Below the pieces are notes generated by a model. It had not been told where the DNA came from. It did not search any database and saw nothing but the letters and a program-made list of their open reading frames with translations. A DNA stretch of 46,012 nucleotides from Planctomycetota bacterium (lineage in GTDB: Bacteria > Planctomycetota > Planctomycetia > Pirellulales > Pirellulaceae): assembly GCA_016872635.1 (NCBI GenBank), contig VGZN01000001.1:1-46012 (forward strand), written 5' to 3'. Shown one piece after another: positions 3,667 to 14,088 of the stretch. The stretch's first letter is position 1. Each line of letters opens with the position of its first letter. A program made the position numbers and the translations under genes.

Positions 3667-4329
3667 ATGAATCATGACCTAAACGCGGTTCGATCGCACT
3701 TGTATGCAGCGGTACTCTGCGATGCGCTAGACCAGATCGGACTGCACCATCAATCGCCTAGAGTGTCACTCCCATTGCAAACCCGATTTCCGGATTCAGT
3801 AGGAGTTCTCGCTGGACGCTGCAAAACCACGCTTTGGGCGGACATGGCCCATTTGGATCCTGAACCCTATGCACTGGAACTGAAGGCTGTCGATGAATGC
3901 AATCCTGACGATGTCTTTGTTGCGGCAGCGGGAGGGTCGATGCGCTCGGGCATTTGGGGAGAACTCCTAACTACCGCGGCGAAAAATCGTGGTTGTGTCG
4001 GTGCGATCGTCGATGGTGCTATTCGAGATGTTGACAAAATTGCGGCGATGCACTTCCCTGTGTTCGCCAAAAGCCGATGCATTTACGACAGCTTGAATCG
4101 ACAGCGAGTCATCGACATAGATATCCCCGTTGAGATTGATGGTGTTCGTTTTGTACCTGGTGATCTTGTGGTCGCCGATGCCGATGGCGTTGTCGTTGTC
4201 CCAAAAAACGTTGAAAACGAGGTCTTGAAACTGGCGTTTGCAAAAGTACTAGGGGAGAATCAAGTGCGCGATGCAATCCGAGCTGGTATGACCTCGAGAG
4301 ATGCATTCAGGAACTTTGGCATTCTTTAG
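3667..4329 (+). CDS. RraA-family / 4-hydroxy-4-methyl-2-oxoglutarate aldolase-like protein
   Basis: Motifs WGELLTTAA, GAIVDGAIRD and PGDLVVADADGVVVVP. Confidence 0.85.
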   Translation: MNHDLNAVRSHLYAAVLCDALDQIGLHHQSPRVSLPLQTRFPDSVGVLAGRCKTTLWADMAHLDPEPYALELKAVDECNPDDVFVAAAGGSMRSGIWGELLTTAAKNRGCVGAIVDGAIRDVDKIAAMHFPVFAKSRCIYDSLNRQRVIDIDIPVEIDGVRFVPGDLVVADADGVVVVPKNVENEVLKLAFAKVLGENQVRDAIRAGMTSRDAFRNFGIL

Positions 4330-10758: not shown

Positions 10759-11056
10759 TCATCGGAGGCCATGGTCCGGCTGAAAATCGCAGAAAATGCG
10801 TTGTACGATTTAAAAATTGAGGTCGTTTTGGCACGTACCGTCGCCAGCGGCATGGAGCAGCAATGGCATGGAGATTGTCGCTCAAAGGAATTTGGTGTCC
10901 GGGGAAACTAGTTTCACGTGGATATAATTTCAGCGCTGTAGAAGTTTCGGGTCGATGGAAATCAAGACGACGCGTATAGTGATCGCGGCGTCAAATCGAT
11001 GCCTTTTCACCGCGCATTTACCAGCCCACCATCACGGTACCAACCTGGAGACTCCC

Positions 11057-11737
11057 GTGACTATCCACCATCTTCGCCGAGATTACCGCTATGGCTCGTT
11101 GACACGCGACGAACTCCCGCACGATCCGATCGCACTCTTCCAGACCTGGTTTTCAGAATTGAGAGGGGCCGAATTGCCGGAATGGTTTGAACCCAATGCG
11201 ATGACGTTGGCAACGCACAAGGCGACAGGAGGGGCAGCCTGCCGTATCGTTTTGCTCAAAGAAGTGGAACCGGATGGCTTTCTGTTTTTCACCAACTACC
11301 AGTCGAACAAGGGCATGGAAATCAACCTGGATAGCCGAGTGTCGCTCGGTTTCTATTGGCCCATTTTAGATCGCCAAGTTCGTGTCGAGGGAATTGCGGA
11401 GCGCGTGGAGTCGGAAATCTCGGAGCATTATTTTCGATCTCGTCCTCGATCGAGCCAACTCAGCGCAAATGTTTCACCGCAGTCGGAAGTGATCGAAGAC
11501 GATTCGCTGCTGCAGCGATTGGTGGATGAGTTGGACACGAAACTTGCCGGGGCCGATGTGCCTCGTCCCGATCACTGGGGCGGCTATCGAGTACGCCCTA
11601 TTTCTGTCGAGTTTTGGCAGGGACGACCGTCTCGGTTGCACGACCGGTTTCGGTACACCAAACAATCGAAGGGCCGAAGCGAAGGACTATCCCCAGACCA
11701 GCCTAGTATTTGGAAGGTAGAGCGATTGGGGCCCTAG
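11057..11737 (+). CDS. pdxH: Pyridoxamine 5'-phosphate oxidase
   Basis: LRRDY N-terminus, EPNAMTLAT, RIVLLK, FFTNYxSxKG, RQVRVEG, YFxSRP, PRPDHWGGY and EFWQGRPSRLHDR. GTG start at 11057 is preceded by GGAG. Confidence 0.95.
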   Translation: MTIHHLRRDYRYGSLTRDELPHDPIALFQTWFSELRGAELPEWFEPNAMTLATHKATGGAACRIVLLKEVEPDGFLFFTNYQSNKGMEINLDSRVSLGFYWPILDRQVRVEGIAERVESEISEHYFRSRPRSSQLSANVSPQSEVIEDDSLLQRLVDELDTKLAGADVPRPDHWGGYRVRPISVEFWQGRPSRLHDRFRYTKQSKGRSEGLSPDQPSIWKVERLGP

Positions 11738-11879
11738 TGCCATCAACGGCTACGCTGCCATCTAGCGAAGATGGCCGCGGGCGCCAAACGACTGTTGGCG
11801 AGACCGATTCGAAACGGCGCCCATAGATTTCCAACCTTGCAACCTGTAACGATTGGCCGGCCGAGAGCGACTGGCAAAA

Positions 11880-11921
11880 CCTCGGTGACACTGCCTCGGT
11901 GACACTGCCTCGGTGACACAG
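11880..11921. repeat. 14-bp tandem repeat CCTCGGTGACACTG x3
   Basis: Read directly; the third copy has one substitution. Confidence 0.9.
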
Positions 11922-11924
11922 CAT

Positions 11925-11986
11925 GAAGGAGAGAAATACCCCGGCCTGTGCGGTGAGGCGGACACCACGAGCAGGCCGTTGGGGTA
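11925..11986 (-). terminator. Terminator-like GC-rich stem with pyrimidine tail closing the candidate sRNA
   Basis: TACCC..CGGCCTG..GTGGTG / CACCGC..CAGGCCG GGGTA followed by TTTCTCTCCTT. The U-tract is imperfect. Confidence 0.45.
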
Positions 11987-12139
11987 CCTCTGCGTGCGGC
12001 TTGCCGACGCAAAAGCAAATTGGCGAGAAATCCATCGAAAGCGTGAGGGGCCAAAAGATCCTCTTCCGGCCCTCACGGTATCTTTCGACGTTTGGGTAGA
12101 ACGGTCCGACTGCACAACAACCATGCAATCGAACAATGT
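11925..12139 (-). ncRNA. Candidate sigma54-dependent structured small RNA (~215 nt, four hairpins)
   Basis: Four consecutive stems at 12104-12134, 12033-12090, 11987-12015 and 11937-11986. Their wobble pairs are G-U only on the minus strand. The run begins at the +1 predicted from a consensus sigma54 promoter and ends in a pyrimidine tail (TTTCTCTCCTT). Confidence 0.6.
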
Positions 12140-12149
12140 CTACCGCAAA

Positions 12150-12166
12150 AGCAATCATTGTGCCAA
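12150..12166 (-). promoter_or_regulatory. Sigma54 (RpoN) -24/-12 promoter
   Basis: Minus strand reads TTGGCACAATGATTGCT, an exact match to TGGCAC-N5-TTGC with correct GG-N10-GC spacing. Predicted +1 is about 12139. Confidence 0.7.
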
Positions 12167-12273: not shown

Positions 12274-12290
12274 TGCCTGATAAACTGGCA
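12274..12290. promoter_or_regulatory. Candidate enhancer-binding-protein site (TGCCTG-N5-CTGGCA)
   Basis: Imperfect 17-bp palindrome about 135-150 bp upstream of the predicted sigma54 TSS, with an AT-rich tract (12201-12235) between them. Confidence 0.3.
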
Positions 12291-12507: not shown

Positions 12508-14088
12508 ATGACCCAATCCGAAACTTCTTCGTCCAATCTTCGCAGCATCCGTATTTTCGACACGACGCTTCGCGATGGAGAGCAGTCTCCCGGAGCCAGC
12601 ATGAACTTGAGTGAGAAGCTTGAGGTAGCCCAGGCGCTCGCTTCCCTCGGAGTGGATGTCATGGAAGCAGGTTTCCCCATCGCGTCGCCGGGGGACTTTG
12701 AAGCGGTTCGCGAGATCGCATCGACCATCCGAGGACCTATTATTTGCGGTCTGGCCCGATGCAACGATGGTGACATTGATCGTGCGTGGGAAGCACTTCA
12801 GAAGGCGGAACGCTCTCGTATCCACGTGTTCTTAGCGACCAGTGCGATCCACCGAGAATTCAAACTTCGAATGACTCAGGAAGAAATCATCGCGAGAGCG
12901 GTCAAGGGTGTCGAGCGCGCACTATCGTACTGCGATGATGTCGAGTTCTCTGCGGAAGACGCTGCAAGGACCGAAATCGACTTCCTTTGCCGCGTGGTCG
13001 AAGCTGCAATCGATGCCGGAGCAACCACCATCAACGTACCGGACACTGTCGGCTATACCACGCCAGAGGAAATGTATGCTCGGATCGCAGAACTCATCAA
13101 TCGAGTCCCAAATATCGATCGCGCGGTTTTGAGTTGCCACTGCCACGACGATCTTGGTTTGGCGGTGGCCAATTCGCTTGCCGCGGTTCGCGCTGGCGCC
13201 GGACAGATCGAATGCACCATCAACGGTATCGGGGAACGAGCAGGGAACTGTTCGCTCGAGGAGGTTGTGATGGCGATGCGAACTCGGAACGACGTCTATC
13301 AAACGACTACGCGAATCAAGACGGAGCGATTGGTCCCTATCAGCCGACTGCTTTCCAAAATCACTGGCCTCGATGTACAACGCAACAAAGCGATCGTGGG
13401 ACGAAATGCGTTCGCCCACGAAGCTGGTATCCATCAAGATGGAATGCTCAAGGATCGCAGTACGTATGAAATCATGAGACCAGAGGATGTTGGTTTTGCC
13501 AAAACAGACCTGGTCCTGGGCAAACACAGCGGACGCGCCGCGCTCGCAGACCGCGCTCGTGATCTCGGCTACCATCTGAATGGCGAACAGCTTCAAATCG
13601 TTTTTGAGCAATTTAAAGTTTTAGCCGATAAGAAAAAGAACATCTTCGACGGCGACATCATCGCGCTCATCCAACAACAAATCAGTGGCGCGACCAATAC
13701 AGCTTGGACATTGGTTTCCTATCGAGTCCAAAGCGGTTCTTCGAAAACCCCGTGTGTCGAACTCACGCTCAAGCACGGCGATGACACGTTCACGGAACGA
13801 GTCGAACAAGGGGACGGCCCAATCGACGCCGCATTCTGGGCAGTCGAAAAAATCACCGGTATCAAGACCGTGTGCAAGGATTTCCGAGTTCAGAGCGCAT
13901 CGCTAGGTCGCGATGCTATCGGTGAAGTTACCGTGGAAGTCGATCACGAAGGAGAATCGTATCGCGGTACAGGGGCCTCAACAGACTCCGTTGAAAGCAC
14001 CATCCTTGCGATGCTTAACGCGATCAATCGGATCATCACCGAAAAGAGCCTGCGAAGCGCTGGAAAAGTAACCCCGCAAGACGCATAA
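12508..14088 (+). CDS. leuA: 2-isopropylmalate synthase
   Basis: IFDTTLRDGEQSPG, HCHDDLG, GIGERAGN, AFAHEAGIHQDG, LGKHSGR and a C-terminal regulatory domain (GDGPIDA). Confidence 0.96.
   Translation: MTQSETSSSNLRSIRIFDTTLRDGEQSPGASMNLSEKLEVAQALASLGVDVMEAGFPIASPGDFEAVREIASTIRGPIICGLARCNDGDIDRAWEALQKAERSRIHVFLATSAIHREFKLRMTQEEIIARAVKGVERALSYCDDVEFSAEDAARTEIDFLCRVVEAAIDAGATTINVPDTVGYTTPEEMYARIAELINRVPNIDRAVLSCHCHDDLGLAVANSLAAVRAGAGQIECTINGIGERAGNCSLEEVVMAMRTRNDVYQTTTRIKTERLVPISRLLSKITGLDVQRNKAIVGRNAFAHEAGIHQDGMLKDRSTYEIMRPEDVGFAKTDLVLGKHSGRAALADRARDLGYHLNGEQLQIVFEQFKVLADKKKNIFDGDIIALIQQQISGATNTAWTLVSYRVQSGSSKTPCVELTLKHGDDTFTERVEQGDGPIDAAFWAVEKITGIKTVCKDFRVQSASLGRDAIGEVTVEVDHEGESYRGTGASTDSVESTILAMLNAINRIITEKSLRSAGKVTPQDA

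What the first reader, a model, noticed from the sequence alone, without database searches (positions are those of the whole stretch)
11925..12166. Unannotated sigma54-driven four-hairpin small RNA candidate in the pdxH-leuA gap
Seen: the minus strand has an exact RpoN promoter, TTGGCACAATGATTGCT (12166-12150), pointing away from leuA into a region with no credible CDS. From the predicted +1 (~12139) the sequence is mostly paired, in four successive stems. H1 is GUUCGAUUGCA/UGCAGUCGGAC (12134-12104). H2 is a ~25-bp stem capped by a GGA loop (12090-12033). H3 is CUUUUGCGU-CGG(CAAG)CCG-ACGCAGAGG (12015-11987). H4 is a GC-rich stem with a UCCGCCU loop followed by UUUCUCUCCUU (11986-11925). The many wobble positions are G-U on the minus strand but A-C on the plus strand, which independently supports the promoter's orientation. 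Known: sigma54-dependent multi-hairpin sRNAs exist elsewhere (Qrr, GlmY, CrcZ, Myxococcus Pxr), but I recognise no family matching this one. Inference: a stand-alone regulatory sRNA in a planctomycete. The pyrimidine loop of H4 might pair with SD-like sequences, and the GGA loop of H2 might bind CsrA-type proteins.
Basis: partly seen in the sequence, partly recalled or inferred. Interest (0 to 1): 0.85.

Follow-up and report, generated by a model that had tools for sequence, protein, structure and literature searches.

The report
Pirellulales nitrogen small RNA targeting amtB
This gap holds an uncatalogued, strongly conserved folded RNA found across a whole order of planctomycete bacteria; it is likely switched on by nitrogen shortage and is predicted to base-pair with, and likely dampen, the message for the ammonium transporter, behind whose gene it sits in many relatives.

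Summary
The sigma54 box, four hairpins and minus-strand orientation are real (fold z -5.6), and nothing in Rfam 15 matches. A covariance model of the two 3' hairpins hits 104 of 150 genomes of the own family, 111 of 150 of the order and 0 of 150 elsewhere in the phylum. Stems covary around a near-invariant CCGCCU loop. In 81 of 134 distinct copies the RNA is the 3' UTR of amtB, often before glnK. Here and in other lineages it has its own sigma54 promoter with an NtrC-like enhancer; the same enhancer precedes this genome's unlinked amtB. amtB ribosome-binding sites carry the loop's complement AGGC(G/A): 39 of 68 linked, 17 of 19 unlinked, 3.6% background, 0 of 10 same-type genes in genomes without the RNA. 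A second seed covaries with the amtB leader. Metatranscriptome contigs from two studies cover only the RNA (weak). Best reading: a nitrogen-induced feedback sRNA that represses amtB translation. Pairing, sign and induction are untested. The CsrA/GGA idea is not supported. New family of a known kind.

The parts
12274..12290 (-). NtrC-like enhancer palindrome (TGCC-N9-GGCA), 125 nt before the sigma54 box
   Evidence: Pattern lies at -175..-100 in 39 of 57 homologous promoters (shuffle mean 0.6, max 3) and in 17 of 18 stand-alone promoters with enough sequence. This site scored best of 50 boxes in the genome, but was in the training set. The NtrC consensus is recalled, not from a call.
12150..12166 (-). 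sigma54 (-24/-12) promoter; predicted +1 near 12139
   Evidence: Sequence; conserved in 25 of 25 stand-alone homologues examined; +1 inferred from standard spacing.
11926..12139 (-). Predicted ~215-nt small RNA (both ends inferred)
   Evidence: Fold z -5.59; RNA-library contigs of relatives cover 11930-12122 and 11964-12121.
12104..12134 (-). H1 hairpin; its 17-nt core (12127-12111) also fits the enhancer pattern
   Evidence: core G-C and C-G pairs 25 of 25; flanking positions paired in 16-21 of 25 with changing pairs and G-U. Seen in this form only in the stand-alone clade.
12092..12101 (-). Conserved CUACCC linker motif, role unknown (processing or protein site, inferred)
   Evidence: CTACC(C/T) within 260-60 nt before the loop in 77 of 134 distinct copies, against 5 of 132 in a downstream control window.
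12033..12091 (-). H2 long variable hairpin (scaffold); loop not conserved
   Evidence: Each of 25 homologues folds a stable H2 (z -1.9 to -7.6) with differing loops; RNAalifold found no consensus on a plain alignment.
11987..12015 (-). H3 hairpin and H3-H4 junction; in most relatives a second seed (loop UUGCCU, arm CAGAAGG), diverged here
   Evidence: Covarying pairs; GCCT in H3 of 72 of 81 amtB-linked copies; leader covariation.
11937..11986 (-). H4 hairpin, terminator-like, carrying the seed loop
   Evidence: 97.5% of cells paired, 15 of 20 H3/H4 pairs changed on both sides (alignment fitted to the model); alignment-free count agrees.
11956..11962 (-). Seed loop UCCGCCU, complementary to AGGCGG at -14..-9 of this genome's amtB (contig C74, ATG at 4290)
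   Evidence: Unpaired probability 1.0; 6-bp duplex, -11.3 kcal/mol; loop core kept in 34 of 34 out-of-family hits inspected.
11926..11936 (-). U-rich tail (weak here)
   Evidence: 5 or more U in 10 nt in 78 of 85 distinct copies; not called by the scan.
10955..11737 (+). pdxH, convergent neighbour; not part of the element
   Evidence: TIGR00558; the true start may lie further in.
12508..14088 (+). leuA, divergent neighbour; not part of the element
   Evidence: TIGR00973.

Best explanation
This is a conserved structured non-coding element of the order Pirellulales that is likely transcribed as a small RNA under nitrogen limitation and is predicted to base-pair with the ribosome-binding site of the ammonium-transporter (amtB) mRNA, likely lowering its translation as a feedback brake. 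Shown by sequence comparison: conserved fold and loop, sigma54 box, upstream palindrome, position behind amtB in most copies, and complementary motifs in amtB leaders. Inferred steps: (1) an NtrC-type activator binds the palindrome and fires this promoter together with amtB; (2) the open CCGCCU loop of H4, and in most relatives also the UUGCCU loop and CAGAAGG arm of H3, pairs with AGGC(G/A) and CCUUCUG just 5' of the amtB start codon; (3) covering that site blocks 30S loading. In amtB-linked genomes the RNA would be cut from, or act as, the amtB 3' UTR; in this genome it is a free-standing gene acting in trans on an amtB on another contig.
For: Family: model hits in 104 of 150 own-family genomes and 111 of 150 order genomes, nearly always one copy; covarying stems round a fixed loop. 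Nitrogen link: 81 of 134 distinct copies directly 3' of amtB, 72 followed by glnK; enhancer in 39 of 57 promoters; this genome's amtB has the same palindrome 124 nt before a degenerate box; an enhancer-plus-box search of 14 relatives gave 12 hits, 3 amtB and 1 P-II gene. Trans action: the nearest downstream ORF is convergent in 18 of 21 stand-alone copies. Target: AGGC(A/G) at -22..-2 of amtB in 39 of 68 linked and 17 of 19 unlinked genes; 3.6% of 3366 genes of this genome; canonical RGGAG only 3 of 68 and 0 of 19. AGGCGG is not a general SD here (ratio 0.73 against 3.8 for AGGAGG). Controls sucD 0 of 29, gapA 0 of 30. In genomes without a model hit 2 of 29 amtB loci had the motif, and one of the two proved to carry the RNA behind amtB. 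Second seed: leader CCTTCTG in 16 of 33 genomes whose RNA has CAGAAGG, 0 of 39 otherwise; independent pairs 5.6 same way, 0 opposite. Expression hint: contigs of two metatranscriptome studies cover only the RNA and begin 1 nt apart.
Against: No pairing, induction or sign of regulation was measured. In this genome the seed duplex is only 6 bp and the second seed is diverged. 29 of 68 linked amtB genes lack the motif at the predicted start, and starts were picked by a heuristic. A strict sigma54 box was found before only 23 of 45 linked amtB genes (my count). The phylogenetic test is borderline (median p 0.03-0.06, FastTree). 8 of the 12 enhancer-plus-box hits were not nitrogen genes and the reversed control pattern gave 8 hits. 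The best NtrC-like protein scores below the TIGR01818 cut-off, with about ten other activators present; glnK and glnA of this genome show no box or enhancer. The RNA contigs have depth about 3, give no strand, may be DNA, start 18 nt inside the predicted 5' end, and one runs 38 nt past the U-tail. Only five other candidate gene types were checked for a conserved site (sucD, gapA, porin, glnK across genomes; glnA in this genome only), so other targets may exist.
Confidence: 0.6

Rival explanations
1. Same RNA and same target, but pairing activates amtB translation by opening an inhibitory fold in the leader, as reported for NrsZ on rhlA.
For: In linked genomes CCUUCUG can fold back on the AAGG of the ribosome-binding site (seen examples), so an RNA that takes CCUUCUG would free it. 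Co-induction with amtB fits a coherent feed-forward loop. Unlinked amtB leaders are structured (TCTCTC loop plus GAGAGA in 21 of 22). NrsZ precedent: PMC4253122, section 11.
Against: The most conserved contact is the loop with AGGCG, which is the ribosome-binding position itself. In 3 of 6 hand-picked cofolds the duplex covers both CCUUCUG and the AGGC site; the other three differ.
Confidence: 0.15
2. A cis-acting regulated terminator (attenuator, riboswitch or ANTAR-like antiterminator) that gates glnK; the reading given by earlier finding e1-9889038.
For: H4 plus U-tail is terminator-like; glnK follows in 72 of 134 copies and in 19 of 21 out-of-family copies that sit directly behind a sigma54 box (my count); upstream CUACCC could pair with the GGGUA of H4; one RNA contig runs past the tail. 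A separate glnK promoter was not established.
Against: Copies with full promoter, enhancer and fold persist where the next gene is convergent and unrelated (18 of 21). It does not explain the complementary motifs in amtB leaders or their absence where the RNA is absent. No ANTAR protein in 4 of 5 genomes tested, including this one. The two roles are not exclusive: H4 may also set the amtB:glnK ratio.
Confidence: 0.12
3. A protein-binding (sponge) RNA, for CsrA through GGA loops or for another RNA-binding protein through the repeated GCCU loops.
For: Five CsrA-domain genes and no Hfq in this genome; GCCU recurs in both 3' loops.
Against: GGA is in the H2 loop of only 2 of 25 homologues and not in the conserved loops. 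A sponge would resemble its target site, whereas these loops are the complement of the amtB motif.
Confidence: 0.08
4. An inert leftover: promoter and terminator of a former amtB operon with no RNA function.
For: One locus shows a truncated amtB between box and element (L202), so deletion can create the stand-alone form.
Against: A terminator needs no fixed loop; loop, H3, CUACCC, promoter and enhancer are all kept while spacers diverge.
Confidence: 0.03

Closest known systems
OppZ and CarZ of Vibrio cholerae (Hoyos et al. 2020, PMC7398697; abstract read)
   Same: RNA from the 3' UTR of an operon that base-pairs with its own transcript to inhibit translation: negative feedback, the mechanism proposed here.
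   Different: Different sequence, host and pathway; processing by RNase E is shown there and untested here; this family also exists as a free-standing gene with its own promoter.
GlnZ of Enterobacteriaceae (PMC9731577; abstract and passages read)
   Same: 3' UTR RNA of a sigma54/NtrC-driven nitrogen gene, with seed and terminator.
   Different: GlnZ comes from glnA, needs Hfq and represses sucA; here the parent is amtB, no Hfq was found in this genome, and the predicted target is amtB itself.
NrsZ of Pseudomonas aeruginosa (PMC4253122; abstract and section 11 read)
   Same: NtrB/C-RpoN-induced stand-alone RNA with repeated stem-loops whose loop motif is the pairing seed.
   Different: NrsZ loop ACAGGCAG activates rhlA; the loops here are roughly its complement; no sequence or structure match was seen in Rfam.
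NfeR1 of Sinorhizobium meliloti (PMC10746234 abstract; bioRxiv 10.1101/2025.11.14.688489 passages)
   Same: Nitrogen-responsive RNA with redundant anti-SD motifs that feeds back on nitrogen genes by pairing with a translation initiation region.
   Different: NfeR1 is repressed by NtrC, targets ntrB, gdhA and many other mRNAs; amtB is not named in either text searched; the seed here fits a non-canonical AGGCGG.
Rhodopirellula-1 and GUCCY-hairpin motifs (Weinberg et al. 2010, PMC2864571; passages and supplement excerpts)
   Same: Rhodopirellula-1 was found in planctomycetes; GUCCY has a similar name motif.
   Different: The alignment rows and consensus shown bear no likeness to this RNA; judged by eye on excerpts, not by a model search.

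Membership tests
Any Rfam 15 family | Covariance-model score at the gathering threshold | tested here: not met
   best E 2.5, none on the element; 14 loci: only tRNAs and group II intron parts.
sigma54/NtrC-induced nitrogen sRNA (NrsZ-like) | -24/-12 promoter in front of the RNA | tested here: met
   25 of 25 stand-alone homologues; rpoN present.
sigma54/NtrC-induced nitrogen sRNA (NrsZ-like) | NtrC-type enhancer 100-170 nt upstream | tested here: met
   39 of 57 promoters, shuffle max 3; which activator binds it is not shown.
sigma54/NtrC-induced nitrogen sRNA (NrsZ-like) | Induction under nitrogen limitation | not testable with these tools
   Only unstranded contigs were available.
NrsZ family | Repeated ACAGGCAG loop modules | tested here: not met
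   Sense-strand loops are UCCGCCU and UUGCCU.
Autoregulatory 3' UTR sRNA (OppZ/CarZ-like) | Lies in the 3' UTR of the gene it regulates | tested here: met
   81 of 134 distinct copies 3' of amtB; not true of this window's copy.
Autoregulatory 3' UTR sRNA (OppZ/CarZ-like) | Complementarity to its own operon's translation start | tested here: met
   (computational only).
Autoregulatory 3' UTR sRNA (OppZ/CarZ-like) | Release by RNase E and measured repression | not testable with these tools
   No end-mapping or reporter data.
Hfq-dependent sRNA (GlnZ-like) | Hfq in the host | tested here: not met
   No PF17209 match in this 93.7%-complete assembly; other genomes not searched.
CsrB/RsmZ-type sponge | Several conserved GGA loops | tested here: not met
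   One GGA loop here, in 2 of 25 homologues.
ANTAR antiterminator leader | ANTAR protein in the host, dual hexaloops before a terminator ahead of a gene | tested here: not met
   PF03861 absent in 4 of 5 genomes; next gene convergent in 18 of 21 stand-alone copies. The hexaloop consensus is recalled and was not scored.
Glutamine riboswitch (glnA / Downstream-peptide) | Match to RF01739 or RF01704 | tested here: not met
   No hit.
Small protein gene | Conserved reading frame | tested here: not met
   Open frames differ in phase among 25 homologues and spacings vary by non-multiples of three.

The most novel reading that the evidence does not exclude
An order-wide, Hfq-independent feedback circuit in which Pirellulales amtB genes have given up the normal Shine-Dalgarno sequence for a private AGGCG site read by the loops of an RNA made from their own 3' end. 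The RNA outlives loss, replacement or relocation of its parent gene, becomes a free-standing sigma54 gene and keeps control of a 28%-identical amtB in trans. It would be a base-pairing sRNA with a defined target in Planctomycetota, where my searches found none described, and a natural series for how 3' UTR regulators become independent genes.
Probability: 0.4. Interest if true: 0.85.

Novelty: new variant of a known kind. Interest (0 to 1): 0.72.

Why it matters
Riboregulation in Planctomycetota is almost uncharted: a 2022 review lists 8 annotated sRNA families for the whole PVC group (PMC9029176, Table 1, passage read). This family gives an order-wide RNA with a predicted promoter, activator site, seed and target, all testable in cultured members that carry it (Rhodopirellula maiorica, Neorhodopirellula pilleata, Novipirellula herctigrandis, Stieleria mannarensis). 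It would add a post-transcriptional brake to the GlnK-AmtB ammonium-uptake module, apparently without Hfq, and it shows one RNA in three settings: amtB 3' UTR, ahead of glnK, and free-standing.

Tried and rejected
CsrA binding through the H2 GGA loop: not conserved. Small protein: no conserved frame. sucD and gapA as targets: sites seen in this genome are not conserved, 0 of 29 and 0 of 30. Porin and glnK as targets: porin leaders mostly show GGAG; AGGCG in the last 30 nt of 8 of 98 glnK spacers. A 9-bp pairing of this genome's H3 arm with its amtB leader: not conserved beyond the closest relatives. Covariation between loss of the H3 GCCU loop and an AGGCGG site: not clean once the motif was scored properly. 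A separate -10 box for glnK: inconclusive, 34 of 98 against shuffle mean 21, max 33. Repeat or mobile element: single copy in the genome, no match among phage records. RNAalifold on H2: no consensus. Unrestricted duplex folding of long leaders gave uninformative long helices. Row L093 of alignment A3 had wrong coordinates and was ignored. The phylum search scored only 28 candidates per genome, and the model missed at least one real copy (L441), so 'not found' is not absence. Lack of RNA cover on pdxH and leuA proves nothing about their expression. Ten paper searches found no description; the library lacks most subscription papers and bioRxiv supplements, where motif catalogues could list it.

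Full report
Observation. The plus strand folds less well (z -3.93). Rfam 15 has nothing on it. It is single-copy in the assembly. The terminator scan did not call the weak U-tail.

A family. BLAST of 150 family genomes found 19 matches, 17 of them real and confined to H3-H4. A model of those two hairpins hit 104 of 150 family genomes, 111 of 150 order genomes, 98 of 136 outside the family (the weakest hits may be chance) and 0 of 150 from the rest of the phylum. A pattern scan of species genomes returned 119 loci; of the 100 scored with the model, 64 hit. All but one of these 64 are labelled as planctomycetes (L032 is labelled only 'bacterium'), and the loci from other phyla failed. The family is therefore taken to be Pirellulaceae and the order Pirellulales (inference from those record titles). 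Stems covary: 97.5% of cells paired and 15 of 20 pairs changed on both sides on the fitted alignment, and an alignment-free count round the loop agrees. That set was selected for the loop, so I checked model hits chosen without it: 56 of 62 had CCGCCU in the last loop by the script's tally, and 34 of 34 out-of-family hits (the 14 best and 20 picked across the score range) kept it. H3 usually carries a second GCCU loop, and in a few copies the CCGCCU sits in H3 instead.

Context. Among 134 distinct copies, 81 lie directly 3' of amtB (51 then glnK), 35 lie behind their own sigma54 box (9 then glnK) and 18 could not be placed (not a random sample). Outside the family 21 of 34 sit directly behind a box, mostly between a BBP2-type porin gene and glnK. 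One locus has a truncated amtB between box and RNA (L202), so deletion can make the amtB-less form; which form is ancestral was not tested. In this window's clade the RNA stands alone next to a leuA gene. All 25 copies examined have the box 189-217 nt before the loop, and the next ORF is convergent in 18 of 21 stand-alone copies with enough sequence. No reading frame is conserved.

Promoter. A palindrome TGC(A/C/T)-N9-(A/G/T)GCA, which resembles the NtrC site as I recall it, lies 100-175 nt before the box in 39 of 57 promoters of amtB or of the RNA (shuffle mean 0.6). Here it is at 12290-12274, and this genome's only amtB, on contig C74, has one 124 nt before a degenerate box. A search of 14 relatives for enhancer plus box returned three amtB genes and one P-II gene among 12 hits, with 8 hits for the reversed control, so the link to nitrogen genes is real but the pattern is noisy. 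The core of H1 fits the same palindrome while its flanks covary as RNA; it may serve both ways. Only 23 of 45 linked amtB genes had a strict box.

Target. The commonest words in 27 amtB leaders were AGGCG(G), TCCTTC/CCTTCTG and GGCCC, the complements of the H4 loop, the H3-H4 junction and H3. In 26 leaders AGGCG occurred in 19 (shuffle 4.4, untranscribed upstream DNA 5), CCTTCTG in 10 (0.3, 0) and GGCCCnGGCA in 6 (0.01, 0). At -22..-2 of the predicted start, AGGC(A/G) was in 39 of 68 linked amtB genes and in 17 of 19 unlinked genes of the stand-alone clade, all 17 AGGCGG; background was 3.6% and the normal RGGAG was nearly absent (two rows without a start were dropped, and 8 other-type genes gave 4 of 8). 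The two AmtB types are 28% identical. AGGCGG is not a general SD in this genome, whose 16S tail is standard. sucD and gapA were negative. In 26 genomes with no model hit, 2 of 29 amtB loci with a start had the motif; one of these turned out to carry the RNA behind amtB, and same-type genes without the RNA scored 0 of 10 (my sorting by C-terminal motif). CCTTCTG occurred in 16 of 33 leaders whose linked RNA has CAGAAGG and in 0 of 39 others; on an AmtB tree, independent pairs went 5.6 the same way and 0 the other (median p 0.03-0.06). In this genome the predicted contact is 6 bp at -14..-9 (-11.3 kcal/mol) and the second seed is diverged.

Expression. Two metatranscriptomes from different studies each hold one contig on the element and no close match on its neighbours. 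On the closer relative L029 they match at 99% or more, start at 2355 and 2356 (predicted +1 2338) and one runs 38 nt past the U-tail. Depth is about 3 and contigs give neither strand nor ends, so this is a weak hint.

Mechanism. Most likely an NtrC-type activator and sigma54 make the RNA together with amtB; open GCCU loops pair with the unusual amtB ribosome-binding site and limit AmtB synthesis (confidence 0.6). Conservation, context and complementarity are shown; induction, pairing and sign are inferred. Repression is preferred because the best-kept contact is the ribosome-binding position. Activation through an opened leader remains possible (0.15). No Hfq was found in this genome, which has five CsrA-domain genes.

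Earlier scan notes. Look-ups by sequence and place found nothing. A word search found e1-9889038, an unreviewed note on a hairpin beside amtB and glnK across one planctomycete order, read as a controlled terminator. It probably concerns this family, but it shows no sequence, so I could not confirm that. Its distribution agrees with mine; its mechanism does not explain the stand-alone copies or the amtB leader motifs, and ANTAR proteins were absent in 4 of 5 genomes. I keep it as a rival (0.12), and H4 may well do both jobs where glnK follows.

Comparison and novelty. It works like OppZ/CarZ (feedback from a 3' UTR; abstract) and is wired like GlnZ and NrsZ (sigma54/NtrC) and NfeR1 (several anti-SD motifs), but it is a member of none. 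It matches no Rfam family and does not look like Rhodopirellula-1 or GUCCY-hairpin. Ten paper searches found no description; papers other than those cited were seen as listings only. Verdict: a real, new sRNA family, a new variant of a known kind, interest 0.72.

Noticed in passing
own genome contig C74 about 4195-4290 (L026); also L262-L287: The amtB leader of the stand-alone clade has a conserved hairpin with a UCUCUC loop and a GAGAGA just before the ribosome-binding site (21 of 22 leaders): a possible pseudoknot or cis-regulatory element with no Rfam hit in the three such loci scanned.
   Followed up: partly
window 11880-11921: Three tandem copies of a 14-nt unit just past the RNA's 3' end; not seen in the homologues shown.
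   Followed up: no
window 11753-11779: An 11-bp inverted repeat after the pdxH stop, a likely pdxH terminator.
   Followed up: no
window 12111-12127: The H1 core has the same 17-bp palindrome pattern as the upstream enhancer, 11-27 nt after the predicted +1: a possible second activator site for self-limiting transcription.
   Followed up: partly
L263/L387 (G019 C1 679063-681829): Two amtB genes of different type in tandem, both with the GAGAGA and AGGCGGAG leader motifs; the type that elsewhere carries the RNA in its 3' UTR lacks it here, where the RNA stands alone.
   Followed up: partly
L082 2024-2113; L232, L234, L239: Variant copies with (C)CGCCU in the H3 loop and a changed H4 loop.
   Followed up: no
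L201, L202: Tandem duplications of the amtB-RNA(-glnK) unit; in L202 the second amtB is reduced to a short 3' remnant.
   Followed up: partly
L240 2690-4783: Group II intron parts upstream of the amtB promoter.
   Followed up: no
own genome contigs C190, C251, C360, C153: Strict sigma54 boxes precede genes that look like groEL (two), dnaK and an Hsp20 (named from their N-terminal sequences by recall): chaperones may be sigma54-driven in this group.
   Followed up: no
own genome contig C106 9251-11660 and 1008-4412: Three genes on one contig (AstE/AspA-type deacylase, MFS transporter, secretin) have AGGCGG at the SD position: candidate further targets, conservation not checked.
   Followed up: partly
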